Positions 4,600 to 64,000 of a stretch of DNA of 64,000 nt are shown one piece after another; the stretch's first letter is position 1; each line of letters opens with the position of its first letter. The notes beneath the pieces are model-generated. The model had not been told where the DNA came from and searched no databases. It saw only the letters and a program-made list of their open reading frames with translations. Source of the stretch: Candidatus Latescibacterota bacterium. Its GTDB lineage: Bacteria; Latescibacterota; UBA2968; UBA8231. Location: the NCBI GenBank assembly GCA_965221775.1, contig CBDCSU010000006.1, positions 1,504,001 to 1,568,000 on the forward strand, given 5' to 3'. The translations under genes and the position numbers were made by a program.

Positions 4600-4606
4600 C
4601 CGCGCC

Positions 4607-5212: not shown

Positions 5213-5217
5213 GCCCG

Positions 5218-8828: not shown

Positions 8829-8841
8829 CCCGCGGGGCCCC

Positions 8842-8934
8842 TCAGTCGCCGGGCAGATCCTCCAGGACGGAGGGGGCGAAGAGCAGGATCCCCACCACGA
8901 GGCCGGCGATGACGCCGAGGAGGAAGCGGATCAC
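8842..8934 (-). CDS. 30-aa single-TM microprotein (YtxH N-terminus-like)
   Basis: GTG start overlapping the upstream TGA. MIRFLLGVIAGLVVGILLFAPSVLEDLPGD* with strong GC3 bias. Not in the ORF track. Confidence 0.65.
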   Translation of the reverse strand: MIRFLLGVIAGLVVGILLFAPSVLEDLPGD

Positions 8935-9272: not shown

Positions 9273-9507
9273 CGGCACCGGCTTCTCCCGCGCTGCGGTG
9301 GACCATCAGGTCCTCGACCTTCTCGATGACGCCGTCGCGGGCCTCCCCGGCGCGGCGCAGGATGCGGCGGCGGGTGACCTCGCCCCGCCGCGGCGCCAGC
9401 AGCACCCCCAGGGCGGCCCCCACGATCAGCATGAGCAGGCAACTCACCAGGAAACCGGGCAGGGCGACGTCGTCGCGGGCGGGCCGGCTTCGGATGTAGT
9501 AGGGCAT
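9253..9507 (-). CDS. YtxH domain-containing protein
   Basis: AGGAGG RBS. VGAALGVLLAPRRGEVTRRRI matches the YtxH signature. Confidence 0.85.
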   Translation of the reverse strand: MPYYIRSRPARDDVALPGFLVSCLLMLIVGAALGVLLAPRRGEVTRRRILRRAGEARDGVIEKVEDLMVHRSAGEAGADEEAAS

Positions 9508-9585
9508 GTCACTCCTCCTGTGTTTCGGCTCTGAACCAAGCACTCGAAGGTACGGCTTCCTCTCCATTCGCGCCCTCATTCTCTG

Positions 9586-9614
9586 TTGAGGAAACCGGGC
9601 CCGCCGCCTAGATT
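9586..9614 (+). promoter_or_regulatory. Sigma70-type promoter of the guaB-like operon
   Basis: TTGAGG, 17 nt, TAGATT, ending 31 nt upstream of ATG 9646. Confidence 0.5.
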
Positions 9615-9645
9615 CGACGGCCCCGCGCCGAAGGACGCCTCAGCC

Positions 9646-11127: not shown

Positions 11128-11137
11128 GCCGGCCTCC

Positions 11138-11974
11138 GTGCGGATCGGCTACTCCACGTGGGGCATGCCCGAGGTGGCGATCGACGGCGCCCTGAGGCAC
11201 CTCGCCGGCCTCGGCTTCACCGGCGTCGAGCCCACGGTCATCCCCGGCTGGTCAACGGAGCTGGACACCCTCGACGCCTCCGAGCGCAAGCGCATCCGCG
11301 CCCTCTTCGACGACCACGGCCTCGACATGCCGGCGGTGGCCGGCCACCGGTCGCTGCTGGCCGAGGGCGACGAGCACGACGAGAACTGGCGGCGCCTCAC
11401 CGGGGCCGTCGACCTGTGCGCCGAGTGGGCGCCGGCCTCGGGTCCGCCCCCCGCCCTCGACACCACCCTCGGCGCCCGCCCGGACGACTGGGAGCCGAAG
11501 CGCGATTTCATCCTCGACCGCGTGGGGCAGCTGGTCGACTACGGGGCCGCGGCCGGGGTCGTCATCGCCATCGAGCCACACGTGGGCTCCGCCCTCGACA
11601 CGCCCGAGCGGACGGTCTGGCTCCTGCGGCAGGTCGACTCGGAGTTCCTCAAGCTCAACTTCGACATCAGCCACTTCGAGGTCCTCGGTCTGCCCACGGA
11701 CCAGACCGTGGCCGCCCTGGCGCCGCACTCGGTCCACACCCACGTCAAGGACCAGCGCGGGCGCTCGCCGGCCCACGAGTTCCTGATCCCCGGCGAGGGG
11801 CCCTTCGACTTCGCCGCCTACCTGCGGGCGATGGAGGGCGCCGGCTACGAGGGCTACATCACCGCCGAGGTGAGCATGATGGTGCAGCGGCGGCCCGGGT
11901 ACGATCCCTTCGCCGCCGCCGATCTCACCTTCCGCACCCTGGACACGGCCTTCCGCGAGGCGGGCCTGTGCTGA
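11138..11974 (+). CDS. Sugar phosphate isomerase/epimerase (AP_endonuc_2 TIM barrel)
   Basis: AIEPH, NFDISH, HTHVKD, PGEG and TAEVS metal-binding motifs. Confidence 0.88.
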   Translation: MRIGYSTWGMPEVAIDGALRHLAGLGFTGVEPTVIPGWSTELDTLDASERKRIRALFDDHGLDMPAVAGHRSLLAEGDEHDENWRRLTGAVDLCAEWAPASGPPPALDTTLGARPDDWEPKRDFILDRVGQLVDYGAAAGVVIAIEPHVGSALDTPERTVWLLRQVDSEFLKLNFDISHFEVLGLPTDQTVAALAPHSVHTHVKDQRGRSPAHEFLIPGEGPFDFAAYLRAMEGAGYEGYITAEVSMMVQRRPGYDPFAAADLTFRTLDTAFREAGLC

Positions 11975-11999
11975 CCGCCCCCACGGGCCAGGCCCTGCC

Positions 12000-12650
12000 A
12001 TGAGAGTCCTGATCACCGGCGCCGGGAGCGCTCCCGGCCGCGCCGTCACCGCCGAGCTGCGCCGGCGGCGGCACCGCCTGCGGCTGACCGACCGGCGGCG
12101 CCTGCGGACGGACCTGGAGTTCGTGCAGTCGCGGCTGGGCCACACCCGGGCCACCGACGCGCTGGTGGAAGGCATGAAGGCGGTGGTCCACATTCCCGGC
12201 CCGCCGGGCGCCGGGGCGGAGGCCGCCGACTGGATCGACGCCTGCACGCGGTGCACCTACAACCTGCTCACCGCCGCCGCGGCGGCCGGCGTCGAGCACT
12301 GCGTCTACCTGAGCACGCTGGACCTGTTCGCCGCGTACGACGAGGACCTGCGGGTGACGCCGGAGTGGCGGCCGCGGCCGACCACCGAGCCGGAGGTGAT
12401 GGCCCCCGGCCTCGGGGAGTTCGTGGCCCGCGAGTTCGCCCAGACGAAGCAGATCTCGCTCACCGTGGTGCGCCTGGGGCACCTGGCGGAGGCCGGCGCC
12501 GAGGGGGAGCCGGACCCCATGGGCGTGGACCCGGCCGAGGCTGGCGCCGCCGTGGCCTCCGCCGTGGAGGCCGCCGGCCAAGGCTACCGACTGCTGCACG
12601 TGCAGGGCGAGTTCGAGGGCGCCCGCTTCGGCACAAGGAGGTCGCGATGA
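12000..12650 (+). CDS. NAD-dependent epimerase/dehydratase-like protein, degenerate
   Basis: Rossmann start VLITGAGSAPG and TYNLLTAA...VYLST. No YxxxK. Confidence 0.75.
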   Translation: MRVLITGAGSAPGRAVTAELRRRRHRLRLTDRRRLRTDLEFVQSRLGHTRATDALVEGMKAVVHIPGPPGAGAEAADWIDACTRCTYNLLTAAAAAGVEHCVYLSTLDLFAAYDEDLRVTPEWRPRPTTEPEVMAPGLGEFVAREFAQTKQISLTVVRLGHLAEAGAEGEPDPMGVDPAEAGAAVASAVEAAGQGYRLLHVQGEFEGARFGTRRSR

Positions 12651-13393
12651 AGGTCTGTCTTCTCGGCGGCCACGGCTACCTCGGCCCCTGGGTGGTGAAG
12701 GAGCTGGAGGCCCACGGCTACGACCTGCGGATCACCGACCTCGAGCCGCCGCGCGGCTCCCCCCACGAGACGATGCGGGTGGACGTGGCCGACCTGCGGC
12801 AGGTGCGGCGCGCCGCCAGGGGCTGCGACGCCATCGTCAACTGCTCGGTGCTGCGCCCGCACCGCAAGATCGCCTGGGACGTCAACACCCTGGGCACGTA
12901 CAACGCCGTGCGCACCGCCGTCGACCTCGGCCACGACCGCTTCATCAACACGGGACCGCACTTCACCATCACCGGCGAGCCCTACCACGCCTTCGACTTC
13001 GGCATCGTCGAGGAGGTGCCCGCCCACTCCGGCACCAACCTCTACGCCATCAGCAAGGCCGCGGGACAGGAGGTCTGCCGCATCTTCAGCGACAACCACC
13101 CGATCCACGTGATGTGCATGCTCTTCCTCTCCTTCCGCGCCGCCGATCCGGACGATCCGGAGCGCGGCGGACGGGGCGATCTCAACCCCTTCACGGTGAC
13201 CTTCGCCGACGCGGCGCGGGCGATCCGCTGCGGCCTCGAGGTCGACACGGCCGGGCTGCCTTCGCGCAACGAGGTGTTCTTCGTCGTCGCCGACCTGCCC
13301 CACGGCAAGTACTCCAACGCCAAGGCCCGCCGCCTCCTCGGGTTCGAGCCCGAGGACTCGCTGGAGGCCTACTACCGGGAGAACCGCCCGTGA
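12647..13393 (+). CDS. NAD-dependent epimerase/dehydratase (extended SDR)
   Basis: AAGGAGG RBS, ATGA overlap. GGHGYLG, VNTLGTYN and YAISK motifs. Confidence 0.88.
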   Translation: MKVCLLGGHGYLGPWVVKELEAHGYDLRITDLEPPRGSPHETMRVDVADLRQVRRAARGCDAIVNCSVLRPHRKIAWDVNTLGTYNAVRTAVDLGHDRFINTGPHFTITGEPYHAFDFGIVEEVPAHSGTNLYAISKAAGQEVCRIFSDNHPIHVMCMLFLSFRAADPDDPERGGRGDLNPFTVTFADAARAIRCGLEVDTAGLPSRNEVFFVVADLPHGKYSNAKARRLLGFEPEDSLEAYYRENRP

Positions 13394-14463
13394 CCGGCCA
13401 CGCCTTCGCCCAGGTCTTCGACGCGCCGGGGCGGCCCCTGCGCTACGAGCGCATCCCCCTGCCCTCGAGCCTGGAGGAAGGGGAAGCCCTGCTGACCGTC
13501 GATCTGGCGACGATCTGCGGCTCCGACCTGCACACCACCGGGGGCCGCAGGCGGCAGCCGACGCCGGCGGTGCTCGGCCACGAGGGGGTGGGCCGGGTGG
13601 CGGCCAGCGAGCGCGAAGGCCTGGAGGTGGGCGAGCGCGTGAGTTGGTCGATCGCCGACAGCTGCGGCGAGTGCCGGTTCTGCCGCGGCCACCAGCTGCC
13701 GGAGAAGTGCCTGCACCTGTTCAAGTACGGCCACGCCGACCTCGACGACGGCTGCGGCCTCAACGGCGCCTACGCCACGCATCTGCTACTGCGGCCCGGG
13801 ACGGCGGCGGTGCCGGTGCCGGAGGGGATCCCCGACGCGTTGGCGTCGACCGCCAACTGCGCCCTGTCCACCGCGGTCAACTGCGTGGAGCAGGTGCCGG
13901 AGGGGACGGCGTCGGCCCTGGTGCAGGGGGCCGGCCTCCTCGGCATCTACGCCTGCGCCCTGCTCCACGAGCGCGGCCTGCGCGTCTTCTGCAGCGATCC
14001 GCTGCCGGCGCGGCGGGACCTGGCCGCGCGCTTCGGCGCCGTCGGGCTGGACCCGGCCCTGGACCCGGGGCAGAGGCGCGAGCGGGTGCTGGAGGCGGCG
14101 CCGGACGGCGTCGACGCGGTCCTCGAGATGTCGGGGGAGACCCCGGCCGTGGCCGCCGGCATGGATCTTGTGCGCACCGGCGGCACCTACGTGCTGGCCG
14201 GCATGGTCCACCCCGACTCCGATCTGGCGGGGATCACGGGGGAGCGGATCGTCTTCAAGTGCCTGACCATGCGCGGGGTGCACAACTACTCGCCGCGGCA
14301 CCTGCGGCAGGGGATCGAGTTCCTGGCGCGCACGGCCGGGCGCTACCCCTTCGAGGATCTGTTGGGGCCGACCCTGCCGCTGCGCGACCTGGAGGAGGGC
14401 CTGGCCCTGAGCCGGCAGCGCCGCTGGCTGCGGGTCGCCGTCGCCCCGGGGCTGGAGGGGTGA
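13390..14463 (+). CDS. Zinc-binding alcohol dehydrogenase, phosphonate-catabolism-associated type
   Basis: ICGSDLH, LGHE, structural Zn motif CGECRFC-x7-C, KYGH and GVHNY. Directly upstream of phnA. Confidence 0.85.
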   Translation: MTGHAFAQVFDAPGRPLRYERIPLPSSLEEGEALLTVDLATICGSDLHTTGGRRRQPTPAVLGHEGVGRVAASEREGLEVGERVSWSIADSCGECRFCRGHQLPEKCLHLFKYGHADLDDGCGLNGAYATHLLLRPGTAAVPVPEGIPDALASTANCALSTAVNCVEQVPEGTASALVQGAGLLGIYACALLHERGLRVFCSDPLPARRDLAARFGAVGLDPALDPGQRRERVLEAAPDGVDAVLEMSGETPAVAAGMDLVRTGGTYVLAGMVHPDSDLAGITGERIVFKCLTMRGVHNYSPRHLRQGIEFLARTAGRYPFEDLLGPTLPLRDLEEGLALSRQRRWLRVAVAPGLEG

Positions 14464-53530: not shown

Positions 53531-53702
53531 TTCAGCAGAGGGATCCTGCGCTGATCCACCACATCCCCGCTCCACAGACGGACCACGCCGCTGGCCAGGG
53601 GCCGCCCCGGCCTACTTCAGCAGCGCGACCTTGCGCTGATCCACCACATCCCCGCTCCGCAGGCGGACCACGTAGGCGCCGCTGGCCACGGGCCGGCCCC
53701 GG
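53531..53702. repeat. Imperfect ~80-bp direct duplication of the 3' end of the FG-GAP gene
   Basis: 53531-53610 vs 53616-53702 share tgcgctgatccaccacatccccgctcc and flanking similarity. Confidence 0.85.
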
Positions 53703-56656
53703 GCGTCGAGGCCGTCCCAGAGCGCCCGGTGGTCGCCGGCGGGCACCCAGCCGTCGACCAGCCGCAGAAGACGCTGCCCCGTCATGGAGAACACCTCCAG
53801 GCGCACGGAACCCGTCGTCTCGATCCGGTACGGGATGGTTACCCGGTGGTTGAAGGGGTTCGGCCAGGGCGCCTCGAGCACGGCCGCCGCCGGCAGGGCG
53901 GCCAGGGGGCCGGTCACGGCGGTGCTCGCGTCCCCGGTCCAGGCCCTCACGTAGCCGTCCGTGGTGAGCGCCACGAGGTCGAGGAAGCCGTCGGCGTCGA
54001 CGTCGGCCAGGGCCGGGTCGCTCGGCCGGCCCCCGGTCTCCAAGGTCCAGGGGTTGCGCAGCTCGCCGGCCTCCAGCTCCACCATGGCCAGTCCGGGCGG
54101 CCCGGGGAGGGCCCAGCGGCGTCCGCCCAGCCCGAGGAGGAACTCGTCCCGGCCATCGCCGTCGAGGTCGCCGGAGACCACGTCGGTCGTGGCGGGACCC
54201 AGGTCGATCGCCTGCAGCACGGCGCCGTCCGCAGGCTCCAGCAGTTGCACGCCCTCCGCGGTGGAGGCCAGCAGCTCCAGGTCGCCGTCGCCGTCGGCGT
54301 CACCCGGAACCATGAGCGACTGCACCTGAGTGTTGTTGAGGTACTCCGTCTGCCACCAGACCTCGCCCTCGGCCGAGAGCACGGCGTTCAGGTAGCCGCA
54401 GTGGCCCCAGATCAGCTCCGGGGCCGGGTCCCCGAAGAGGTCGACCAGCGCCGGGAAGGCGTAGCCCACGAAGGCGGGGGCGGCGAACATGGGCGACAGC
54501 CCCTCCCCGTAGGCCTGGCGCACGACCTGGGCGTCGCCGGTGACGCCGTCGACCACGTGCAGCCGGTCCGGCCACATGACCACGATCTCCTCCAAGCCGT
54601 CGCCGTCGACGTCCCCGGCGGCGCTCGGATGGCCTCCGAGGCTGCGGCCGCTGCCGTCGACGGGCAGGGTGTAGCCGTTGCTCTCCCAGACGACGGCGCC
54701 GGTCCCGCCGTCGAGGAGGAAACCGACCTCGCTGCCGATCTTGCCGCGGCGCAGAGTGACGAAGACGTCGTTGCGCCCGGCCTCGCGGAAGTGGCCGGTG
54801 TTCCACCAGGAGAGGCCGCTGAAGTTCCAGATCGGCATGCTGCCGTCGAAGCCGTCGAAGACGGTCTGCCAGAGTACCTCGCCCGCGGCGGTGACCGCCG
54901 CCAGGCTGGCGTTGCCGCTGGGCGCCTCGCGGGCGAAGAGGGTCTCCAGGGAGCCGTCGCCGTCGAGGTCGGAGGCGACCACTCCCCAGTGCCAGGGGGC
55001 GCTGTTCGTCTGGCCGTGGCCCTGCATCTGCCAGCGGACGCGGGCCTCGCCGTCGCCGCGCCGGGGCGCCTCCAGGCAGAGGACCTCCTCGTTGGCCGTC
55101 TGCACCACCACCTCGATGGTACCGTCGCCGTCGAGATCGGCGACCACCGGTGTGCCGGCGGGGGTGAAGCTCTGCCCGCTGAACTGGTGCAGCCGGGCCC
55201 CGGCGCCTTCCACCATGAGCGACTGGCCGGCGGCCCCCCGGCCCTTCCACGAGACCAGCGCGGCGGGGCCCTCCTCGCCGGTGGCCGTGGCCGCCGCCTG
55301 CAGGCGGGCCCCCGCCGGGCCCGCGACCGTCCACAGGTCCCGCACGGCGCCGCCGGCGCCCGCACCCCAGGCGGTCAGGGCCTCTCCCTCCGCGGCGGGG
55401 GTGACGACGAAGAAGTCGGACCGGCCGTCGCCGTCGGCGTCACCGGTGACGGCGGTGCGCAGACCGTCGGAGGCGCTTGTGTTCACCGTCAGGGGCAACT
55501 CGTCGAGGGGCCGGCTGCTGAAGGCGGCGCGGTCGTGCCGCCAGCGCTCCACATGGCCCTTCGAGTGGAGGGTCAGCACCGAGACCGGCGCATAGGGCGG
55601 CAGGGCCTCGCCCTCGGCCTGCGACAGGAACCACTCGGGGCGGCCGTCGGCGTCGATGTCGTGGAGGCCGTGGAGGTAGCGCCCGGGGAAGTCGTGGTCC
55701 GTCTCGCCGCTGAGGGCGTCGACGGCGATCGTGTGCCAGAGGCGGTCGCCGGTGTCGTCGTAGACGCTGTAGACGACCTCCACGGCGCCGTCCCCGTCGG
55801 CGTCGAGGAAGGCCGAAGGCCGGGGGCGCACCACCTTCGTCGTCTGCGAGGGATCGGGCTGGATCTCGCGGATCCAGCGCAGGGTCAGCCCGCTGCCGTC
55901 GTTGTCGATGACCTCGGCGTGCATGCTGAAGTCGGCGACGACGGCGAACTCGGGATAGGGGTCGTCGTCGATGTCGGCGGCGGCGAAGTGGCCGTAGTTG
56001 CGGTAGCCGTGGTAGCGCAGCTCCATCATCGTCTCGCCCGTGGCCCCGTGGAAGACGAGGATGCGGTAGTGGGTGGCCACCGCCAGGTCGAGCTGTCCGT
56101 CGGCATCGGCGTCGACGACGAGGACGTTCGGGGCCCATGTGTTCTCGAAGGGCTCGGTCTCCCACACGACCCGCGGCTCCCCCGTGTCGTAGGCCAGGAG
56201 ACGGCCCCGCTTCGGCTCCGCCCCCCCGTCGGAGAAGGAGTCGCCCATCTCGAAGCGCTGCAGACCGGGAACGCCGGGCAGGATGGCGGCCACCTTGTAG
56301 GCGTTGTACGCGTGCATGGGGACGAGAGCGCCGTCGCCGGCCAAGTCATGGAGCGGCGGACCCAGCCCCCAGGCCGACTGCTCGCGGCCGAGCCAGCCGG
56401 CGTCGAGGCCACCCGGGAAGGGCAATTGCAGGACCGGCGCACCCGCACCGGGGGTCACCGAGGCGTAGCCCTCCCAGGCGGCGATGTCATGGCGCCAGGC
56501 CTCGGCGGGAGGACCGTCCGTCATGCGGCCGGTGCCGGCGGCGCGGCCGCTCATGTGCCGGTCGCCGCGCAGCTGCAGCCAGCCGGACTCCTCGGCGGCG
56601 GCCGGAGCGGCGGCGGCCGCCGCCAGCAGGAGGAGCAAGGTCGAGATCGCCGTCAT
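53612..56656 (-). CDS. Secreted FG-GAP (integrin-like) repeat protein with C-terminal FlgD-Ig/T9SS-CTD-like domain
   Basis: Signal peptide, many DxDGDG repeats, and a PNPFN...WDG...VASGAY...LLK tail. Confidence 0.9.
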   Translation of the reverse strand: MTAISTLLLLLAAAAAAPAAAEESGWLQLRGDRHMSGRAAGTGRMTDGPPAEAWRHDIAAWEGYASVTPGAGAPVLQLPFPGGLDAGWLGREQSAWGLGPPLHDLAGDGALVPMHAYNAYKVAAILPGVPGLQRFEMGDSFSDGGAEPKRGRLLAYDTGEPRVVWETEPFENTWAPNVLVVDADADGQLDLAVATHYRILVFHGATGETMMELRYHGYRNYGHFAAADIDDDPYPEFAVVADFSMHAEVIDNDGSGLTLRWIREIQPDPSQTTKVVRPRPSAFLDADGDGAVEVVYSVYDDTGDRLWHTIAVDALSGETDHDFPGRYLHGLHDIDADGRPEWFLSQAEGEALPPYAPVSVLTLHSKGHVERWRHDRAAFSSRPLDELPLTVNTSASDGLRTAVTGDADGDGRSDFFVVTPAAEGEALTAWGAGAGGAVRDLWTVAGPAGARLQAAATATGEEGPAALVSWKGRGAAGQSLMVEGAGARLHQFSGQSFTPAGTPVVADLDGDGTIEVVVQTANEEVLCLEAPRRGDGEARVRWQMQGHGQTNSAPWHWGVVASDLDGDGSLETLFAREAPSGNASLAAVTAAGEVLWQTVFDGFDGSMPIWNFSGLSWWNTGHFREAGRNDVFVTLRRGKIGSEVGFLLDGGTGAVVWESNGYTLPVDGSGRSLGGHPSAAGDVDGDGLEEIVVMWPDRLHVVDGVTGDAQVVRQAYGEGLSPMFAAPAFVGYAFPALVDLFGDPAPELIWGHCGYLNAVLSAEGEVWWQTEYLNNTQVQSLMVPGDADGDGDLELLASTAEGVQLLEPADGAVLQAIDLGPATTDVVSGDLDGDGRDEFLLGLGGRRWALPGPPGLAMVELEAGELRNPWTLETGGRPSDPALADVDADGFLDLVALTTDGYVRAWTGDASTAVTGPLAALPAAAVLEAPWPNPFNHRVTIPYRIETTGSVRLEVFSMTGQRLLRLVDGWVPAGDHRALWDGLDARGRPVASGAYVVRLRSGDVVDQRKVALLK

Positions 56657-56714
56657 GGCTCGATCCCCTGGGCTCGAGTGAGGCGCGCACCAGGCGGTGG
56701 CCCATCCGCGCCGG

Positions 56715-56937
56715 CCGGCCGCGGCGCGGGCCACATGGGACGGGGGCGCCGCGGTGTCGAGACTGTGGGCGGCGGCGACCATCAGCCGCTGCGCAACGGC
56801 TTCCCCAGGCTACCCCGGCCGCCGCGCGGGCCACATCGGGACGGCGGAGCCGCGGTGTCGAGACTGTGGCCGGCGCCGACCCGGAGCCGCTGTACCACGC
56901 CTCCCAAGCTACCCCGGCCGACGGCGGCGAGCCACAC
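56715..56937. repeat. Imperfect tandem repeat, period 100 bp, about 2.2 copies
   Basis: gcgcgggccacat at 56724 and 56824; gccgcggtgtcgagactgtgg and gctaccccggccg each occur twice. Confidence 0.85.
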
Positions 56938-56986: not shown

Positions 56987-58342
56987 ATGCGCTTCCCCGA
57001 CATCGGCCTGAGCGTGCCCCGCGTACTGCTGCCGCGCCCGGAGGTGGATCTCGAGGAGTGGGCGGTCATCGCCTGCGACCAGCACACCTCGAACCCCGAG
57101 TACTGGGAGGAGGCCGCCCGCCTCGTTGGGGACCGGCCCTCCACCCTGCACCTGGTCTTCCCCGAGGCCTTCCTGGAGTCACCCGGCCGCGGGGCCCGCA
57201 TCCGCCGCATCCACGGGCAGATGGAGAGCTACCTCCGGGACGGGGTGCTGCAGCCCCTGGAGCCCGGCTTCGTGCTGGTGGACCGGCGCACGCCGCACGC
57301 CGCCTCCCGCAAGGGCCTGATCGCGGCCCTCGACCTGGAGCGGTACAGCTTCGCGCCGGACGCCTCGACCCTGATCCGCACGACGGAAGGGACCGACCCC
57401 GGGCGCTTGCCGCCGCGGGTGGAGGTCCGCCAAGGGGCGGCCCTGGAGGTGCCCCACATCCTGGTCCTCATCGATGATCCGCAGGGCACCGTGATCGAGC
57501 CCCTCTTCGAGAGGGCGCTGCCCCTGCTCTACGACACGGATCTGATGCTGGGCGGCGGCCGCGTGCGCGGCTGGCACGTGACAGCGGAGGATGCGATCCG
57601 CCAGGCCGCCGAAGCCCTCACCCGGCTGGCGGCGCCGGAGGCGGTGTCCGAGCGCTACGGCCTCGAAGCGGGCGCCCCGGCGCTCTACGCCATGGGCGAC
57701 GGCAACCACTCCTTCGCCGCCGCGCGGGAGGTGTGGAACGGGGTCAAGGCCGAGGCCGGCGGTCTCGACGCGGCGGCCGGCCACCCGTCGCGGCACGCCC
57801 TCGTGGAGCTGGTCAACCTGCACGACCCCGGGCTGCGCTTCGAGCCGATTCACCGGGTGCTCTTCGGCGTCGACGGCGGCGAGATGGTGCGGGAGATGGA
57901 GGCACTCTTCCGCGACCAGGGCTCGGGTGTGCGGACCGATGTCTTCGACTCCCCCGCCCCCTGGCGCCGGGGCCGGGAGGACCTCGCTGCCCGCGGCCTG
58001 CATCACCTGCCCTTCGTCGCCGGACGCGAGGACGGCCCTCCCCGCTGGGGGATCGTCGTGGTCCACGACCCCCGGCATGACCTCGAGGCCGCTTCCCTGG
58101 ACGCCTTCCTCACCGACCTCGGCGCCCGGCGCGGCCTGCGCCTCGACTACATCCACGGCGAGGAGGAGGTCACCGAGTTGGGAACGCGCGCCGGCAACGC
58201 GGGGCTCCTCTCCCGGGCCCTCGACAAGCACGCCCTGTTCCGCACGGTGCTGCGCGACGGCCCGCTGCCGCGCAAGAGCTTCTCCCTCGGCGAGGCGGAG
58301 GAGAAGCGCTACTACATGGAATGCCGGCGCCTGATCCCCTGA
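56987..58342 (+). CDS. DUF1015 family protein
   Basis: WAVIACDQ, DLERY, TTEGT, AMGDGNHS, FEPIHR and LPRKSFS motifs. Promoter TTGTCG-17-TACACT lies 8 nt upstream. Confidence 0.88.
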   Translation: MRFPDIGLSVPRVLLPRPEVDLEEWAVIACDQHTSNPEYWEEAARLVGDRPSTLHLVFPEAFLESPGRGARIRRIHGQMESYLRDGVLQPLEPGFVLVDRRTPHAASRKGLIAALDLERYSFAPDASTLIRTTEGTDPGRLPPRVEVRQGAALEVPHILVLIDDPQGTVIEPLFERALPLLYDTDLMLGGGRVRGWHVTAEDAIRQAAEALTRLAAPEAVSERYGLEAGAPALYAMGDGNHSFAAAREVWNGVKAEAGGLDAAAGHPSRHALVELVNLHDPGLRFEPIHRVLFGVDGGEMVREMEALFRDQGSGVRTDVFDSPAPWRRGREDLAARGLHHLPFVAGREDGPPRWGIVVVHDPRHDLEAASLDAFLTDLGARRGLRLDYIHGEEEVTELGTRAGNAGLLSRALDKHALFRTVLRDGPLPRKSFSLGEAEEKRYYMECRRLIP

Positions 58343-60516: not shown

Positions 60517-61296
60517 ATGTACCCCAACCCGATCAAGCAGAAGCTCGACGACGGGCAGGTCGTCTTCGGCACCGGCCTGCCCGCCTTCACCCCCCACTTC
60601 GCCGGCCCCACCCTCGACACGGGAATCGACTTCCTGTGGATCGACACCGAGCACATGCCGTACGGGGTAGAGTCCCTCGACGTCATCCCCGTCCTCGCCC
60701 GGCAGCGGGGGGTGGCGCCCCTGATCCGGGTGGCCAACAACGACCCGGGCCTGATCAAGAAGGCCTACGACGCGGGGGCGGTGCTGGTCATGATCCCCCA
60801 GGTCAACTCGGCCGAAGAGGCGGCGCGGGCCGTCGACGCGGCCCACTACCCGCCCGAGGGCAACCGCGGCCTGTCGCCCATGTGGACGAGGATCGCCGGC
60901 CAGGACTGGGACCACGTCCTGGCCACGGCCAACGACGAGACCCTGCTGGTCTGCCAGCTCGAGAGCCTGCAGGCCTGGGAGAGCCTGGACGAGATCGCCG
61001 CCGTGCCCGGCATCGACGTCATCCTGGTGGGACCCCTGGACCTGTCGGCGTCCCTGGGGGTGATGGGGCAGACGGGCTCCAAGGAGGTGCAGAGCATCAT
61101 GGAGGCGGTGCCCCGGCGGCTGGAGGGGACGGGCATCGTCACGGGCACGACCCTGGCCGAGCCCGGCGACATCCGCCAGAAGATCGACTGGGGCTACCGC
61201 TTCCTGAACGTGGGCACCCCCCTCTCCTACGGGGTGCAGGTGGTGACGTCGCACGTGGCCTCCCTGCGCGAGTACGCCGACCGACGCGGCAAGTGA
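60517..61296 (+). CDS. HpcH/HpaI aldolase family protein
   Basis: IDTEH, IRV, DAGA, YPPEGNRG, QLES and GPLDLS motifs. Confidence 0.92.
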   Translation: MYPNPIKQKLDDGQVVFGTGLPAFTPHFAGPTLDTGIDFLWIDTEHMPYGVESLDVIPVLARQRGVAPLIRVANNDPGLIKKAYDAGAVLVMIPQVNSAEEAARAVDAAHYPPEGNRGLSPMWTRIAGQDWDHVLATANDETLLVCQLESLQAWESLDEIAAVPGIDVILVGPLDLSASLGVMGQTGSKEVQSIMEAVPRRLEGTGIVTGTTLAEPGDIRQKIDWGYRFLNVGTPLSYGVQVVTSHVASLREYADRRGK

Positions 61297-63854
61297 CCGC
61301 CGCCCTCCCGCCCGTCGCCGACCGCCTGCGGCGCGGACTGTTCGTCGTCACCGCCGAGCAGACGCACCCGGCGCAGGCGCCGCGCTATGCGCGGCTCATC
61401 GAGCGCGGCGCCGTCGACGCCGTCACCCTGCCCGACATCCCGCTGGTGGGCCGCCTCGGCGACGCGGTGCGCCTCTTCGGGCGCCGGGAGCGGCCGAAGG
61501 GCCTCTTCGACGTTCTGGGGGAGACCCGCGAGCCGGTGGTGACGATCGCCGCCGGGACCCGCACACGGAGCACGGTGGAGGCCCGCATCCTGCGGGCCGT
61601 GAGCGGCGGCGCCCGGGGGCTGCTGGTGCTCTCGGGGGGAGACCTGGTGCGGCGCGGGATGGGGGCGGTCCCCGGCGGCGCCTCGCTGCTGCCGATGGAC
61701 GCCTTCCGGACCCTGGAGCTGACACGCCGCCTGCGCGAGTCCGGCCAGCTGCCGGAGGGACTGCCCGTGTGGGCCGTGGAGAACCCCCTCGTGGGGCGGG
61801 TCGAGGCGCGGGTCGACCGCCTGGCCCGCAAGATCGACGCCGGCGCCGAGGCGGTCCTGCTGCAGCCGCCGCTGCTGTGGGAGCGCCACGAGGCCTGGTG
61901 GGATCGCGCCCACGCCCGCGGGCTCACCTCGACCCCGCTGGTGGTCGGCGTTCCCGTGATCGGCTCGGCGGCGATGCTCCGGTTCTGGTTCTTCCTCATC
62001 GGCTGCGGGGCCCGCTCCGCGGAGGCGCGCGCCCTGCTGCGCGACTACCGCGCCGCCGAGGGCGACCTCGACGAAGAGGAGTTCACCGCCTTCAAGCGCC
62101 AGTGGTCCGCCGATCTGATCGGCCGCATCCGCCGGCTGCCCGGGGCCGCCGGCATCCACCTGATGCCGATCAGCGGCACCGCGGACCTGCTGCCGGTGCT
62201 GTCGGCGGCGGGCCTGGCGCCGAGCGAGCGGGCGCGGTCGGACGTGGACCGGCTGAGCGCCGACCTCCAGGAGCGCGGCGTCTCCGTGGTCCACGAGCCG
62301 GGCCTGCGCGACGACGGCTACGCGCGCTCCTTCCGCGGCGCCCTGCGCAGCCTCGAGCGCGTCGTCGAGACCGAGGCCGGCGATCCCGCCTTCCGCACCT
62401 ACTGGAACCGCATCACCTACGCCCAGCACTTCCGCGTGCCCATCGCCTACCGGCCCTTCGTCGGCCCGGGGGGAGAGCCGGAAGAGACGTGGGAGCTGGC
62501 CCTCGACGTGCGCCAGCTCGACACCGGACCGGCCCTCGAAGAGGCGGTGCGCGCCGCCCTGCGCCGCCGCGAGGCCGGCTCCACCGAGAGCGAGGGCGGC
62601 GCCGTCATCGGCGGCTGGGTGCCCTACAGCCGGAGCCCGGTGTGGCAGTTCAACGAGACCTTCTGGCGGCACATGCGGGCCTACGTCGGCACCCACGGCC
62701 GCGACTATCGCGACAGCATCAGCGGCTCGCCGGACTCCGTCGTGGAGCTGGTGCGCGCCAACGCCCGGCGGTTCCTGGAGCAGGTCGTCGAGGCGCGCCA
62801 GGAAGACCCGGCCGCCGAGCTGGCCTGCGTCGAGTTCGGCGTCTCCAGCGTCGACTACGCGCGGGAGTTCATCGACACGGTGACCCGCTTCGCCCAGGCC
62901 GGGAGACTGGACCCGGGGCCGCTCTGCTACGTGCTGGCCGACGCCGCGCCGGCGTCGCTGGAGGCGGCGCGGGAGGAGCTGGGCGAGCGGCGCCGGGGGT
63001 TCCGCCTGGACTACGTGCAGACCAACCTCGAGGCGCCGGTGCAGCTGGAATCCTACCGGGGGCGGATCCTGCGCGTGCACATCACCTCCGTCGTCAACAA
63101 CCTTCCCAACGACAAGCTGGCCCAGATCGACGGCGAGTGCTTCGCCATCGAGACCCGCCTCTACCTGCCCGGCCCGCAGCTCGACTCCCTCTCGGAGCAG
63201 TACGGTCTCGACGCGGAGCGGCTGCGTGACGACCTGGAGGCGATCGCGGGATCCGGCGTCTCCGCCTTCCTCGACCTGTACCGCGGACGCTTCCGGGAGA
63301 GCCTGGGAGAGAAGGAGGGGGACTACCGGTTCTACCACTTCTGGCAGGACCTCTACGGCAACCCGGAGGACCGCGGCACGGGCCTGAAGCTGGAGGAGCG
63401 CTACGTGCGCATCCCCGACCTGGGCCGGTTCTCCTTCCTCGACCCGGACCGCCTCGCCGGCCTGCCGCTGGACCCGGCGGCGATCCTGCGGGAGGTCCTC
63501 GACGAGTACCCCCCCAACGTCTGGATGCACCTCTCCAACCGCTCGATCGAGGGCTGCCTGCTGCTCATCGACCTCCTGCACCCGCGGGGGGCGCTGGAGC
63601 TGATCGACCTCATCGTGCGCGTCATCGCCGACTACCACGAGGTCCCCCGGCGCCGCAACCGCCGGGGCCGCAGCCTCTACCGCATGGGCTTCAAGGGGCC
63701 GGCCAAGTTCGACGGCTCCGCCGTGGACTGGTTCAACGGCCGCCTCTTCGAGGCCGCGGCGCGCCGGGCCTTCCCCGGCTGCCGCGTGAGCTGGTCCAGC
63801 CTCGAGGAGTACGGGCGGCCCCACATGTCGCTCATGGAGGTCCGGCGCTCTTGA
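61293..63854 (+). CDS. Fusion of MTHFR (MetF)-like barrel and SAM-methyltransferase-like domain
   Basis: GTG overlapping the upstream TGA. N-terminus has TAE, DAVTLPD, LSGGD, ENP, RKIDAGA..LLQP and GIHLM. C-terminus has VEFGVS, YVLAD and NNLPND. Confidence 0.75.
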   Translation: MTAALPPVADRLRRGLFVVTAEQTHPAQAPRYARLIERGAVDAVTLPDIPLVGRLGDAVRLFGRRERPKGLFDVLGETREPVVTIAAGTRTRSTVEARILRAVSGGARGLLVLSGGDLVRRGMGAVPGGASLLPMDAFRTLELTRRLRESGQLPEGLPVWAVENPLVGRVEARVDRLARKIDAGAEAVLLQPPLLWERHEAWWDRAHARGLTSTPLVVGVPVIGSAAMLRFWFFLIGCGARSAEARALLRDYRAAEGDLDEEEFTAFKRQWSADLIGRIRRLPGAAGIHLMPISGTADLLPVLSAAGLAPSERARSDVDRLSADLQERGVSVVHEPGLRDDGYARSFRGALRSLERVVETEAGDPAFRTYWNRITYAQHFRVPIAYRPFVGPGGEPEETWELALDVRQLDTGPALEEAVRAALRRREAGSTESEGGAVIGGWVPYSRSPVWQFNETFWRHMRAYVGTHGRDYRDSISGSPDSVVELVRANARRFLEQVVEARQEDPAAELACVEFGVSSVDYAREFIDTVTRFAQAGRLDPGPLCYVLADAAPASLEAAREELGERRRGFRLDYVQTNLEAPVQLESYRGRILRVHITSVVNNLPNDKLAQIDGECFAIETRLYLPGPQLDSLSEQYGLDAERLRDDLEAIAGSGVSAFLDLYRGRFRESLGEKEGDYRFYHFWQDLYGNPEDRGTGLKLEERYVRIPDLGRFSFLDPDRLAGLPLDPAAILREVLDEYPPNVWMHLSNRSIEGCLLLIDLLHPRGALELIDLIVRVIADYHEVPRRRNRRGRSLYRMGFKGPAKFDGSAVDWFNGRLFEAAARRAFPGCRVSWSSLEEYGRPHMSLMEVRRS

Positions 63855-64000
63855 GCGGTGGCGCCCAGGTCGCGACGGGCCCTCCCGGGACGGCGCTGAC
63901 CGTCAGCGCCCGGGTGGCCGCCGACGACGGCCGCGCCGAGACCCTGCAGGCCCTGGTCTCCCGCTGGCGGCCCCCGGACGAGTGGCCCGGGTTCGCCGCC
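63851..64000 (+). CDS. Hypothetical protein, N-terminal part (runs off the window edge)
   Basis: GGAGG RBS and TTG start overlapping the upstream TGA. Open GC3-rich frame MSGGAQVATG...WPGFAA. Confidence 0.65.
   Translation, partial: MSGGAQVATGPPGTALTVSARVAADDGRAETLQALVSRWRPPDEWPGFAA

What the first reader, a model, noticed from the sequence alone, without database searches (positions are those of the whole stretch)
61293..63854. MTHFR-like barrel fused to a SAM-methyltransferase-like domain
Seen: one 853-aa ORF. The first ~310 aa follow the MetF FAD barrel pattern with substitutions (TIAAGTR where MetF has HLTCRD; LQP for TQ). A linker domain follows, then a Rossmann-like domain (SPVWQFNETFW, VEFGVS, YVLAD, NNLPND). 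It is coupled to an HpcH aldolase upstream and an unknown gene downstream. Knowledge: bacterial MetF is normally standalone, and eukaryotic MTHFR carries a SAM-binding regulatory domain. Inference: either a bacterial SAM-regulated MTHFR analogue or a channelled folate-to-methylation enzyme in an undescribed pathway.
Basis: partly seen in the sequence, partly recalled or inferred. Interest (0 to 1): 0.75.

Follow-up and report, generated by a model that had tools for sequence, protein, structure and literature searches.

The report
Divergent MTHFR fused to MidA-like methyltransferase
This is a real, conserved bacterial gene that joins an unusual folate-reductase (MTHFR) barrel to a methyltransferase-like domain, a combination not described so far, and in one group of sponge-associated bacteria it is the only MTHFR-type gene found.

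Summary
The 853-aa ORF (window 61293-63854, +) is real. Its third-codon-position GC is 0.97, independent DNA assemblies carry it intact, and full-length orthologues occur in several phyla.

**N-terminal domain (residues 1-312).** This is an MTHFR-fold barrel (Z 26.5 to Thermus MTHFR). It belongs to a separate clade:
- It keeps the catalytic Glu, the pterin-binding Gln and the stacking aromatic residue.
- It has Gly in place of MetF Asp120, and Ser and Thr in place of Arg118 and His88.

**Linker (residues 316-435).** An unassigned alpha/beta domain.

**C-terminal domain (residues 436-853).** A class I methyltransferase fold, closest to MidA/NDUFAF7 (COG1565; Z 17.9). The first glycine of motif I, the post-I Asp and the D/N-N-L-P motif are kept. 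The canonical GxGxG loop is not.

**Link between the two modules.** The same C-domain is also fused to a different MTHFR clade (MetF+DUF5981). In one metagenome contig it lies 2.6 kb from such a gene.

**Distribution.** In four related Poribacteria-labelled genomes the fusion is the only full-length MTHFR-superfamily gene, although FolD and a methyl-folate-binding MetH-type protein are present.

**Best reading (about 0.45).** A bifunctional enzyme: a working, possibly flavin-altered MTHFR joined to an active SAM-dependent methyltransferase of unknown substrate, analogous to YitJ.

**Main rival.** A SAM-sensing regulatory domain, convergent with eukaryotic MTHFR.

The HpcH neighbour is conserved only within the genus.

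The parts
60517..61296 (+). Upstream HpcH/HpaI-type class II pyruvate aldolase gene (259 aa). Its stop overlaps the start of the fusion gene by 4 nt.
   Evidence: PF03328, E 3.1e-29. About 140 bits to the YfaU/GarL/HpaI equivalogs, all below their cut-offs. Junction sequence read. The neighbour is conserved only in L003-L006.
61293..63854 (+). The whole fusion gene, 853 aa, GTG start, TGA stop.
   Evidence: Translation. Third-position GC 0.97. Full-length orthologues. Gap-free independent DNA contigs.
61293..62228 (+). N-terminal MTHFR-fold (beta-alpha)8 barrel, residues 1-312, of the 'S-G-G / TQPP' clade.
   Evidence: AF2 model pLDDT 91.7. Foldseek top hits are MTHFRs, E 1e-11. VIA Z 26.5, rmsd 2.9 A, 270 residues aligned to 1v93. 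Profile against PDB MTHFR E 1.4e-9. hhalign to E. coli MetF, probability 90%.
61356..61358 (+). Glu22 codon, aligned to the MetF catalytic acid Glu28 (position A).
   Evidence: hhalign. Glu in 38 of 44 family members, with 4 gaps. Role of Glu28 from PMC11094777.
61629..61643 (+). L-S-G-G-D (residues 113-117) in place of the MetF L-R118-G-D120 motif. Position D is Gly116.
   Evidence: hhalign. Ser114 in 41 of 44. Position 116 is G in 30, S in 11, T in 2 and D in 1 of 44.
61857..61871 (+). LLQPP (residues 189-193). Gln191 aligns to MetF Gln183 (position C).
   Evidence: hhalign. Gln in 43 of 44.
61986..61988 (+). Trp232 codon, aligned to MetF Phe223 (position B, stacks on the folate phenyl ring).
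   Evidence: hhalign. Trp in 43 of 44.
62238..62597 (+). Linker alpha/beta domain, residues 316-435, holding the conserved YWNRITYxQHFR motif (62400-62435). It is also present in stand-alone C-domain proteins.
   Evidence: AF2 model pLDDT above 80 over this part. It is not covered by any MidA or methyltransferase structural alignment; those start at model residue 121. Motif conservation.
62598..63851 (+). MidA/NDUFAF7 (COG1565)-like class I methyltransferase-fold domain, residues 436-853.
   Evidence: Foldseek 4f3n, 4g67, 5zu0 and 1zkd at E 3.5e-8 to 1.7e-6. VIA 5zu0 Z 17.9, rmsd 3.3 A, 294 aligned, against Z 15.1 or less for other methyltransferases. PF02636 hit in 4 of 37 relatives.
62829..62846 (+). 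Motif I region VEFGVS. Gly516 is kept, but the second and third glycines of GxGxG are replaced.
   Evidence: Gly516 in 37 of 37. Position 518 is A in 26, G in 7 and S in 4. Distant members keep E-[LI]-G-V-G-x-G.
62928..62942 (+). YVLAD. Asp550 is the acidic post-I residue at the end of strand beta2.
   Evidence: Asp in 36 of 37.
63096..63113 (+). NNLPND, the (D/N)-N-L-P motif.
   Evidence: Position 602 is D in 34 and N in 2 of 37. Asn603 in 35 of 37. Pro605 in 33 of 37.
63851..64000 (+). Start of the downstream 549-aa gene (runs off the window). It has about seven 'FDGRxVYFVP' repeats plus a C-terminal Laminin_G_3 domain. Its start overlaps the fusion gene's stop by 4 nt.
   Evidence: Conserved only in L003-L006.

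Best explanation
**Shown.** One polypeptide holds three folded parts:
1. a divergent MTHFR-fold barrel;
2. an unassigned alpha/beta linker domain;
3. a MidA/NDUFAF7-type seven-beta-strand methyltransferase-fold domain.

All three are conserved to the same degree across orthologues from several phyla.

**Inferred.**
- The barrel is still a methylene-/methyl-tetrahydrofolate oxidoreductase. It keeps the catalytic Glu, the pterin-binding Gln and the stacking aromatic residue.
- It has lost Asp120 and the residues that in MetF lie at Arg118 and His88. Its flavin site is therefore altered, or absent as in the flavin-independent mycobacterial enzymes.
- The C-domain still binds S-adenosylmethionine and is an active methyltransferase. 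Its substrate is unknown. By analogy with MidA it could be a guanidino or amino nitrogen of a protein or small molecule.

The protein would then be a bifunctional 'methyl supply plus methyl use' enzyme of the methionine/SAM cycle. It is comparable in logic to the YitJ-type homocysteine S-methyltransferase/MTHFR fusion. In some lineages it serves as the cell's only MTHFR.
For: **Fold**
- N-domain: Z 26.5 to 1v93. FAD-type MTHFRs score Z 23-26, flavin-independent Mfr 18.6-19.8, and unrelated barrels 15.9 or less.
- C-domain: Z 17.9 to MidA 5zu0, against 15.1 or less for other methyltransferases.

**Catalytic positions of the barrel.** hhalign to E. coli MetF (probability 90%, E 1.6e-6) places Glu22 on Glu28, Gln191 on Gln183 and Trp232 on Phe223. 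These residues are present in 38, 43 and 43 of 44 family members. The roles of these positions come from PMC11094777 (passages read). The same paper reports that position D is not strictly conserved in flavin-independent Mfr.

**The barrel is needed.**
- In a 151-genome sample of the phylum of G168, 151 of 151 genomes have a PF02219 match.
- The fusion is in 4 of the 151.
- Those four are the ones without another full-length match. G171 and G172 have none. G168 has a 16.8-bit fragment beside a YitJ-like gene truncated to its S-methyl_trans domain. G170 has a 163-aa-frame fragment.
- All four have FolD and a 348-aa MetH-type pterin-binding protein.

**The C-domain looks like an enzyme.**
- Residues invariant across the superfamily, including stand-alone members with a canonical GxGxG, are kept in the fused clade: Gly516, Asp550, Asn603, Asp481, Trp458, Glu702, Arg703, His763, Gly766 and Asp772, each in 34-37 of 37.
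- Stand-alone proteins of about 500 aa form large clusters.

**Functional link between the two modules.**
- The same C-domain is fused to a separate MTHFR clade, MetF+DUF5981, in P0046 and P0053.
- In L020 it lies 2.6 kb upstream of such a gene.
- MTHFR domains are also fused to other methyl-transfer domains: S-methyl_trans and Pterin_bind.

**Equal constraint on all parts.** Identity to orthologues is 46-63% for the barrel, 42-55% for the linker and 46-63% for the C-domain, leaving out the 92% orthologue P0002.
Against: - No activity, cofactor or ligand has been measured.
- This protein is below the Pfam cut-offs: PF02219 scores 14.9 bits against 24, and PF02636 gives no hit at all.
- Asp120, whose Asn mutant keeps 0.3% of kcat in E. 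coli MetF, is Gly here.
- The glycine loop of motif I is degenerate in the fused clade (G-V-A/S-S), so SAM binding is not certain.
- The four genomes where it is the only MTHFR-type gene are close kin (82-100% identity). That is one evolutionary event. They might instead do without MTHFR.
- In the window's own genome, and in G071, G070 and G169, a canonical MTHFR coexists with the fusion.
- The fusion is patchy: 9 of 168 genomes of its phylum, and 5 of 10 in its genus. Here it is an accessory gene.
- No conserved neighbour points to a substrate.
- A conserved C-domain is equally expected of a regulatory domain.
Confidence: 0.45

Rival explanations
1. SAM-regulated MTHFR. The barrel is the only catalytic part. 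The MidA-like domain has become a SAM/SAH sensor that inhibits or activates the barrel. This would be convergent with the C-terminal regulatory domain of eukaryotic MTHFR, but built from a different fold.
For: - The domain order matches eukaryotic MTHFR: catalytic barrel, linker, C-terminal SAM-binding module.
- The hallmark SAM-binding positions are kept while the catalytic-type GxGxG loop has decayed in the fused clade.
- In four genomes it is the only MTHFR-type gene, where feedback control would be useful.
- The 2026 review states that a regulatory domain is known only in eukaryotic orthologues, so a bacterial analogue would fill a gap (PMC13001107, passages read).
Against: - Stand-alone C-domain proteins are common and carry the same invariant polar residues. 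That is easier to explain for an enzyme.
- The other known bacterial MTHFR fusions join catalytic methyl-transfer domains, not sensors.
- The fold is unrelated to the eukaryotic regulatory domain.
Confidence: 0.25
2. Folate-gated protein methyltransferase or signalling module. The MidA-like domain methylates a protein, as NDUFAF7 methylates Arg85 of NDUFS2. The MTHFR-like barrel is a non-catalytic sensor of folate or one-carbon status.
For: - MidA/NDUFAF7 are protein arginine methyltransferases (PMC3829151, abstract and passages). They are the closest structures.
- Relatives of the module are fused to regulatory or kinase-type domains: AceK in P0037, HATPase_c in P0059 and Usp in P0066. The P-loop-like stretch in P0036 is my own reading of the sequence, not a family hit.
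- An MTHFR-like protein of unknown function, 3ijd, was crystallised with methyl-H4folate bound (title).
Against: - The catalytic Glu, not only the binding residues, is kept in 38 of 44 members.
- In four genomes the barrel is the only MTHFR-type gene, although enzymes on both sides of the step are present.
- No candidate protein substrate is encoded nearby.
Confidence: 0.12
3. Channelled, SAM-independent methylation. The barrel makes 5-methyl-H4folate and the methyltransferase-fold domain takes the methyl group directly from it. It would occupy the place that the Pterin_bind domain has in MTHFR+DUF5981+Pterin_bind fusions.
For: - In P0046 and P0053 the C-domain sits where Pterin_bind sits in L038, L039 and L040: MTHFR, DUF5981, then the third domain.
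- The glycine-rich SAM loop is altered in the MTHFR-linked clades.
Against: - To my knowledge (recalled), no class I methyltransferase fold is known to use methyl-folate.
- The post-I Asp and the D/N-N-L-P motif typical of adenosyl binding are kept.
- Distant stand-alone members have a fully canonical SAM motif.
Confidence: 0.08
4. Assembly chimera or decaying gene: two unrelated genes joined by a misassembly or a frameshift.
For: One database protein, P0033, looks like such a chimera. It has a 2-hydroxyacid dehydrogenase followed by the last ~145 aa of the C-domain.
Against: - Intact orthologues at 45-95% identity in 13 genome loci, several from single-contig chromosomes.
- Gap-free contigs from two other studies.
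- Uniform third-position GC.
- A confident AF2 model for each part.
Confidence: 0.01

Closest known systems
FAD-dependent bacterial MTHFR (MetF; E. coli, Thermus thermophilus 1v93/3apt)
   Same: The same (beta-alpha)8 fold (Z 23-26.5). The profile hits it at E 1.4e-9. The catalytic Glu, the pterin Gln, the stacking aromatic residue, Lys172, Ala177 and His273 equivalents are kept.
   Different: - About 15-19% identity.
- Asp120 is Gly, Arg118 is Ser and His88 is Thr.
- It forms a separate clade (SH-aLRT 99, quick tree).
- It carries 540 extra residues.
- It is below the Pfam gathering score.
Eukaryotic MTHFR with a C-terminal SAM-binding regulatory domain (6fcx, 8qa6, 8uy2)
   Same: The order is the same: barrel, linker, then a C-terminal domain that plausibly binds SAM. 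The barrel matches at Z 23-25.
   Different: The eukaryotic regulatory domain is described as a novel fold of two five-stranded sheets (PMC13001107). Here the C-domain is a class I methyltransferase fold of MidA type. Any likeness would be convergent.
YitJ-type bifunctional homocysteine S-methyltransferase/MTHFR (NCBIfam NF006396)
   Same: A bacterial MTHFR fused to a methyl-transfer domain. One is encoded in the same genome (636 aa, 370 bits).
   Different: The partner domain there is N-terminal and is a PF02574 barrel. Its MTHFR part keeps T-G-D and T-Q. There is no homology to the C-domain here.
MidA / NDUFAF7 / COG1565 (PF02636; 5zu0, 1zkd, 4g67)
   Same: These are the best structural matches to residues 436-853 (Z 16-17.9, 274-294 residues aligned). 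Distant family members reach PF02636 (4 of 37, best E 8.9e-7).
   Different: - 7-13% identity.
- No PF02636 hit for this protein.
- GxGxG is replaced by G-V-S-S.
- There is an extra 120-residue N-terminal alpha/beta domain.
- It is fused to MTHFR, and no link to complex I is apparent.
Flavin-independent MTHFR (Mfr; MSMEG_6649 7wmx, M. hassiacum 8bgr)
   Same: An MTHFR-type barrel in which position D is not a conserved Asp and no flavin is bound (PMC11094777). This offers a precedent for how the barrel here could work without the MetF flavin contacts.
   Different: It is structurally farther from this protein (Z 18.6-19.8) than the FAD-type enzymes are. Mfr is monomeric and single-domain.
MetF+DUF5981 (MetV-like) fusions, with or without Pterin_bind
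   Same: These are other multi-domain MTHFRs in the same phyla. P0046 and P0053 join this type to the same C-domain.
   Different: They belong to a different MTHFR clade, keep S/T-G-D, and have a Cys-rich domain that this protein lacks.

Membership tests
MTHFR superfamily (PF02219) | (beta-alpha)8 barrel superposable on solved MTHFRs | tested here: met
   Z 26.5, rmsd 2.9 A, 270 residues aligned to 1v93. The 23 best entries are all MTHFRs. Foldseek E 1.4e-11.
MTHFR superfamily (PF02219) | Score above Pfam's gathering threshold (24 bits) | tested here: not met
   14.9 bits, E 0.017, residues 92-231. Relatives do pass: 12 of the 37 sequences of A1 match PF02219 at E 0.1 or better (best 6.8e-13), and the family profile hits PDB MTHFR at E 1.4e-9.
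MTHFR superfamily (PF02219) | Catalytic acid (E. coli Glu28, position A) | tested here: met
   Glu22 by hhalign. Glu in 38 of 44. It is invariant in the 16 fused proteins.
MTHFR superfamily (PF02219) | Pterin-binding Gln183 (position C) and stacking Phe223 (position B) | tested here: met
   Gln191 in 43 of 44 and Trp232 in 43 of 44.
FAD-dependent MetF | Asp120 (position D), bidentate to pterin N3 and the exocyclic NH2 | tested here: not met
   Gly116. The family has G in 30, S in 11, T in 2 and D in 1 of 44.
FAD-dependent MetF | Residues at MetF Arg118 and His88. That these contact FAD is recalled, not taken from a call. | tested here: not met
   Ser114 (41 of 44) and Thr84 (38 of 44) by hhalign. 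Whether a flavin still binds cannot be tested with these tools.
FAD-dependent MetF | NAD(P)H:methylene-H4folate oxidoreductase activity | not testable with these tools
   There is indirect support only. It is the sole full-length MTHFR-type gene in G171 and G172, and nearly so in G168 and G170, with FolD and a pterin-binding MetH-type protein present.
Flavin-independent Mfr | Closest structural and sequence neighbour is Mfr | tested here: not met
   Z 18.6-19.8 to 7wmx, 8bgr and 8qpj, against 23-26.5 to FAD-type MTHFRs.
MidA/NDUFAF7 (PF02636, COG1565) | Seven-beta-strand fold with the MidA-specific additions | tested here: met
   5zu0 Z 17.9 (294 aligned), 1zkd Z 17.2 and 4g67 Z 16.1. The next family scores Z 15.1.
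MidA/NDUFAF7 (PF02636, COG1565) | Pfam PF02636 match | tested here: not met
   No hit at E 1 or better for P0001, nor for residues 316-853. 4 of 37 relatives hit, best E 8.9e-7.
MidA/NDUFAF7 (PF02636, COG1565) | Canonical motif I E-x-G-x-G-x-G | tested here: not met
   E-F-G-V-S-S-V here. Distant members P0035, P0063, P0065, P0082, P0111 and P0081 keep G-V-G-x-G.
MidA/NDUFAF7 (PF02636, COG1565) | Acidic residue after strand beta2 (adenosyl ribose contact, general class I feature; recalled) | tested here: met
   Asp550, in 36 of 37.
MidA/NDUFAF7 (PF02636, COG1565) | Methylation of an arginine of NuoD/NDUFS2 | not testable with these tools
   The function is known from PMC3829151. Nothing here bears on it.
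Eukaryotic MTHFR regulatory domain | The fold of the SAM-binding regulatory domain | tested here: inconclusive
   No chain of 6fcx, 8qa4-6 or 8uy1-2 appears among the matches to the C-domain model. The model is positively assigned to another fold.
YitJ-type bifunctional enzyme (NF006396) | Homocysteine S-methyltransferase domain (PF02574) | tested here: not met
   No PF02574 hit. NF006396 matches only its MTHFR part, profile positions 398-523, E 0.011.

The most novel reading that the evidence does not exclude
The module is a self-contained, SAM-independent methylation machine. A flavin-free MTHFR barrel would make 5-methyl-tetrahydrofolate, and the attached MidA-type Rossmann domain, with its remodelled cofactor loop, would use that methyl-folate directly as methyl donor. 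It would be the first class I methyltransferase fold to run on a folate instead of SAM.
Probability: 0.08. Interest if true: 0.9.

Novelty: new variant of a known kind. Interest (0 to 1): 0.6.

Why it matters
[quoted passage not shown] According to a 2026 review, extra regulatory domains are known only in eukaryotic orthologues.

This family shows a third way in which bacteria extend the enzyme, beside the YitJ and MetF/MetV types. It also defines a whole clade of MTHFR-like barrels lacking Asp120, which is important in E. coli MetF.

If the barrel is active, it widens the known sequence space of the reaction. It may be a second flavin-independent solution. It would also correct genome-based metabolic models that would call these sponge-associated bacteria MTHFR-negative.

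If the C-domain senses SAM, this is convergent evolution of feedback control. If it is an enzyme, there is an unknown methylation product tied to folate metabolism in uncultured symbionts.

The stand-alone C-domain family has clusters of about 76-309 members, mostly in Actinomycetota. It too has no assigned function.

Tried and rejected
- **Domain docking.** Complex prediction with the N-domain (A2) against the C-domain (A1) returned 'no answer', score 0.00. It says nothing either way about whether the domains dock.
- **Single-sequence PDB search.** 0 hits. Profiles were needed.
- **Locus search with A1.** The narrower A3 worked.
- **Metagenome scan for stand-alone C-domains.** It gave only one locus, L020, so the 'neighbour of MTHFR+DUF5981' observation rests on one case.
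- **Conserved operon.** None was found.
  - The BacA, HpcH, 549-aa and PhyH neighbours are kept only in L003-L006.
  - L009 and L010 sit among sugar-acid-type genes.
  - L011 sits between an LpoB gene and the mur/fts cluster.
  - L007 sits beside a polysaccharide cluster.
  - PhyH genes recur near the gene in the window, L009, L010 and L011. I treat this as chance because the distance and orientation differ each time.
- **2-oxoacid lyase link.** The HpcH neighbour here, and the ICL-domain neighbour and fused HMGL-like domain in L015, suggested a link to 2-oxoacid lyases. Two cases are too few.
- **Three weak own-phylum hits.** L029-L031 proved to be ordinary Wood-Ljungdahl-type MetF/MetV genes, not relatives of this clade.
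- **Frames of 835-924 aa in the phylum of G168.** The three I cut out (821-901 aa) are MTHFR+DUF5981+Pterin_bind, not this fusion.
- **The linker domain (residues 316-435).** I make no claim about its fold.
- **RNA libraries.** Contigs of X19 cover 25 of 30 bins, including both junctions, at 88-99% likeness. Such a library can hold DNA, so this is only a hint of expression. X20 gave only short, mostly unlike pieces.
- **Literature.** Searches for the fusion found no paper describing it. Supplements were not consulted.

Full report
**1.

The + frame from GTG 61293 to TGA 63854 translates to 853 residues without a stop. The DNA is 72-75% G+C, so long spurious frames occur on both strands. Third-position G+C picks out the real gene: it is 0.97 for this frame and 0.76 for the overlapping antisense 865-aa frame.

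The start codon overlaps the stop of the upstream HpcH/HpaI aldolase gene by four bases (GTGA). The stop overlaps the TTG start of a downstream 549-aa gene (TTGA). A BacA gene ends 19 bases before HpcH.

Independent support that the frame is unbroken:
- 20 of the 34 proteins found cover at least 93% of the query (831-894 aa).
- 13 loci in species-representative genomes hold uninterrupted matches.
- Contigs from two other DNA studies cover 60631-64000 (X7) and 61947-63843 (X5) without gaps.

Contigs of one metatranscriptomic library (X19) also cover most of the gene and both junctions. Such libraries can contain DNA, so this is only a hint of expression.

**2. The N-terminal domain**

On its own sequence the protein barely touches Pfam MTHFR (14.9 bits, cut-off 24), and it hits nothing in the PDB.

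A profile of 44 relatives hits Thermus MTHFR at E 1.4e-9 and human MTHFR at 7e-9.

The AlphaFold2 model of residues 1-320 (pLDDT 91.7) superposes as follows:

| Structure | Z |
|---|---|
| Thermus MTHFR 1v93 (rmsd 2.9 A, 270 residues) | 26.5 |
| Other FAD-dependent MTHFRs | 23-26 |
| Cthe_2304 (3ijd) | 20.8 |
| Flavin-independent mycobacterial enzymes | 18.6-19.8 |
| Mer | about 16 |
| Unrelated barrels | 15.9 or less |

Profile-to-sequence alignment to E. coli MetF (hhalign probability 90%, E 1.6e-6) gives this mapping. Counts are from 44 family members.

| This protein | E. coli MetF | Count in family |
|---|---|---|
| Glu22 | Glu28 | E in 38 |
| Gln191 | Gln183 | Q in 43 |
| Trp232 | Phe223 | W in 43 |
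| Lys180 | Lys172 | K in 44 |
| Ala185 | Ala177 | A in 43 |
| His289 | His273 | H in 43 |
| Gly116 | Asp120 | G in 30, S in 11, T in 2, D in 1 |
| Ser114 | Arg118 | S in 41 |
| Thr84 | His88 | T in 38 |

PMC11094777 (passages read) defines four positions:
- A is the catalytic acid Glu28.
- B is Phe223, which stacks on the folate phenyl ring.
- C is Gln183, bidentate to the pterin.
- D is Asp120, bidentate to N3 and the exocyclic NH2.

The same paper reports that D is not strictly conserved in the flavin-independent enzyme. Three of the four carrier-binding positions are therefore kept here, including the catalytic one. Position D and two neighbouring MetF residues are not. That Arg118 and His88 contact FAD is my recollection, not a call result.

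A quick maximum-likelihood tree of 52 N-domains puts all 43 'S-G-G / TQPP' barrels, fused and solo, on one side of a branch with SH-aLRT 99. On the other side are E. coli MetF, two Wood-Ljungdahl MetFs, the YitJ-like enzyme of this genome and four MetF+DUF5981 types.

Caveats on the tree:
- The careful search did not finish.
- E. coli MetF sits on a very long branch.
- No rows were dropped.
- The 'solo' rows P0042, P0052 and P0057 may be fragments of fused genes.

**3. The C-terminal part**

No Pfam or NCBIfam model matches it.

The model of residues 316-853 is confident (pLDDT 93.1).
- Foldseek ranks COG1565/MidA structures first: 4f3n, 4g67, 5zu0 and 1zkd at E 3.5e-8 to 1.7e-6.
- VIA-align gives MidA 5zu0 Z 17.9 (rmsd 3.3 A, 294 residues), 1zkd Z 17.2 and 4g67 Z 16.1. 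Other methyltransferases score 15.1 or less. This holds both in the re-ranking and in the Foldseek-independent search.
- All these alignments start at model residue 121. Residues 316-435 therefore form an extra alpha/beta domain whose fold I could not test separately.

Among 37 family members, Pfam methyltransferase models match weakly:
- Methyltransf_12 in 11
- Methyltransf_33 in 5
- Methyltransf_28 in 4 (best E 8.9e-7)
- Methyltransf_25 in 4

Column counts over the 37 sequences:
- Gly516 of motif I in 37
- Asp550 (post-I) in 36
- (D/N)602 in 36 and Asn603 in 35
- Asp481 in 37, Trp458 in 37, Glu702 in 35, Arg703 in 35, His763 in 34, Gly766 in 37, Asp772 in 36

The second and third glycines of GxGxG survive only in distant stand-alone members (E-L/I-G-V-G-x-G). 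The MTHFR-fused clade has E-I-G-V-A-S, and this protein has E-F-G-V-S-S.

The language-model atlas places the domain next to clusters of about 500-aa 'putative SAM-dependent methyltransferases', mostly from Actinomycetota. PF02636 is found on 15-18% of their members.

**4. How widely the fusion occurs**

The exhaustive representative search found 419 proteins at E 1e-3 or better, 180 at 1e-10 and 37 at 1e-30.

Full-length fusions come from records labelled as follows:
- Latescibacterota
- Gemmatimonadaceae (near-identical sequences carry either of these first two labels)
- Poribacteria
- Omnitrophica
- Elusimicrobiota
- Planctomycetota

In the window's own phylum the full-length gene is in 9 of 168 genomes, including this one, and in 5 of 10 genomes of its genus. 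It is patchy there.

The module also sits inside larger proteins:
- P0037, 2863 aa: AceK, then the module, then an HMGL-like domain. It lies next to a 1720-aa protein with an isocitrate-lyase domain.
- P0036, 1390 aa: an N-terminal part that looks like a P-loop kinase. This is my reading of its sequence, not a family hit.
- P0059, 2746 aa: HATPase_c.

The three parts of the protein diverge at the same pace. Identity to the 14 orthologues other than the 92% one is 46-63% for the barrel, 42-55% for the linker and 46-63% for the C-domain.

**5. Evidence that the two modules belong together functionally**

1. P0046 (1194 aa) and P0053 (1232 aa) carry the same C-domain behind a different, more canonical MTHFR clade with a DUF5981 (MetV-like) domain. 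PF02219 scores E 1e-22 and 1.6e-20, and the 'L-T-G-D' motif is kept.
2. In the one metagenome contig recovered for a stand-alone C-domain (L020), a 652-aa MTHFR+DUF5981 gene lies 2.6 kb downstream on the same strand. This is a single case.
3. MTHFR domains in these phyla are repeatedly fused to methyl-transfer domains:
   - homocysteine S-methyltransferase, in the 636-aa YitJ-like protein of this very genome (370 bits to NF006396);
   - Pterin_bind, in MTHFR+DUF5981+Pterin_bind proteins of 821-901 aa.

**6. Evidence that the barrel works as an MTHFR**

In a 151-genome sample of the phylum of G168, the genome of a Poribacteria-labelled locus, every genome has a PF02219 match (151 of 151).

Most matches lie in frames of about 620-650 aa. 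I take these to be YitJ-like from their length and profile range, but I did not check them one by one. A further group of genomes has a frame of about 540 aa. I examined one of these, and it is MetF+DUF5981.

The fusion, searched with P0021 at E 1e-30 or better, is in 4 of the 151 genomes. Those four are the ones lacking another full-length MTHFR:
- G171 and G172 (single-contig genomes): the fusion is the only match at E 0.01 or better.
- G170: also a partial match in a 163-aa frame.
- G168: also a 16.8-bit fragment lying just behind a 409-aa gene. That gene keeps the homocysteine S-methyltransferase domain and stops early in the MTHFR part.

All four genomes have FolD. All four have a cluster with a 260-aa B12-binding protein and a 348-aa MetH-type pterin-binding protein. 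Enzymes that make methylene-folate and that handle methyl-folate are therefore present.

The four genomes are close kin (82-100% identity in this protein). This is one lineage and one event, not four. Elsewhere the fusion coexists with a canonical MTHFR, in G000, G071, G070 and G169.

**7. Context**

The BacA-HpcH-fusion-549-aa arrangement is kept only in the four closest genomes (87-95% identity).

| Locus | Surroundings |
|---|---|
| L009, L010 | Two enolase-superfamily genes upstream; GFO/IDH/MocA, Ldh_2 and PhyH genes around |
| L011 | An LpoB gene and an unknown 552-aa gene upstream; murD-ftsW-murG-murC downstream |
| L007 | A polysaccharide cluster on the other strand |

No neighbour is shared across lineages, so context gives no substrate.

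The window's stretch is held by runs labelled sponge metagenome from several studies. I laid contigs from two of those studies.

**8. Interpretation**

The domain identities are secure, about 0.9 each. The mechanism is inferred.

I favour a bifunctional enzyme (0.45): an active, flavin-altered or flavin-free MTHFR plus an active SAM-dependent methyltransferase. The reasons are:
- The barrel keeps its catalytic residue and appears indispensable in one lineage.
- The C-domain keeps every superfamily-wide invariant residue that its stand-alone, presumably enzymatic, relatives have.
- The other bacterial MTHFR fusions join catalytic methyl-transfer partners.

The rivals are:
- A SAM/SAH-sensing regulatory domain, convergent with eukaryotic MTHFR (0.25). 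It fits the domain order and the decayed glycine loop. It would answer the statement in the 2026 review that regulatory domains occur only in eukaryotes (PMC13001107, passages read).
- A folate-gated protein methyltransferase (0.12). It draws on the MidA/NDUFAF7 precedent (PMC3829151, abstract and passages) and on the fusions to AceK, HATPase_c and Usp.
- Direct use of methyl-folate by the Rossmann domain (0.08). This is the boldest reading not excluded.
- An assembly artefact. This is excluded for practical purposes.

**9. Novelty**

Three full-text searches found no description of this fusion:
- MTHFR + MidA + methyltransferase + fusion
- COG1565
- MTHFR-like + bacteria + methyltransferase domain

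The database names seen are 'hypothetical protein' or plain 'methylenetetrahydrofolate reductase'.

I file it as a new variant of a known kind. It is an MTHFR fused to a methyl-handling domain, with a new partner fold and a new MTHFR clade lacking Asp120.

Noticed in passing
G000:C4:788931-790841 (L017:502-2412, +), outside the window: The genome's canonical MTHFR is itself a fusion. It is a 636-aa YitJ-like homocysteine S-methyltransferase/MTHFR (NF006396, 370 bits, below the 453-bit cut-off) that keeps the T-G-D and T-Q motifs.
   Followed up: partly
window 63851-64000, continuing to L002:11851-13500: The downstream 549-aa protein has about seven repeats built around 'FDGRxVYFVP' (propeller-like) and a C-terminal Laminin_G_3 domain. 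It has no other family hit and is conserved only in the closest genomes.
   Followed up: partly
L035:2608-3837 (-), genome G168: A YitJ-like gene truncated to 409 aa. The homocysteine S-methyltransferase domain is intact. The MTHFR part stops after about 100 residues, and only a 16.8-bit remnant follows. This looks like gene decay in a lineage that has the fusion.
   Followed up: partly
L038:8262-10727, L039:7630-10284, L040:6135-8840: Three-domain proteins of 821-901 aa with MTHFR + DUF5981 + Pterin_bind. They join the reductase to a methyl-folate-binding methyltransferase domain.
   Followed up: partly
L015 (Omnitrophica-labelled contig), 386-14245: Two giant adjacent genes. One is a 1720-aa protein with an isocitrate-lyase domain. 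The other is a 2863-aa protein with AceK, the MTHFR/MidA-like module and an HMGL-like domain. A riboflavin operon (ribBA, ribH, ribD, ribE-like) follows.
   Followed up: partly
L032, L033, L034 (same phylum as the window): Wood-Ljungdahl-type clusters. MetF and a MetV-like DUF5981 protein lie with FlpD/MvhD, a very large HdrA-like flavoprotein and FolD. In L034, CdhD and a CO dehydrogenase (Prismane family) are also present.
   Followed up: no
L003/L004 versus L005/L006 (record titles): Near-identical loci (87-95% protein identity, same synteny) are labelled Gemmatimonadaceae in two records and Candidatus Latescibacterota in two others. One of the two labels must be wrong.
   Followed up: no
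P0033: A 482-aa database protein joins a complete D-2-hydroxyacid dehydrogenase to the last ~145 residues of a C-domain that is identical to P0008 apart from one residue. It comes from a 2.5-kb contig and is probably an assembly chimera.
   Followed up: no
window 53612-56782 (-) and about 57000-58342 (+): A 1056-aa repeat-rich protein lies on the - strand. On the + strand, the C-terminal part of a long frame begins near 'MRFPDIGLSVPRVLLP'. Neither was examined.
   Followed up: no
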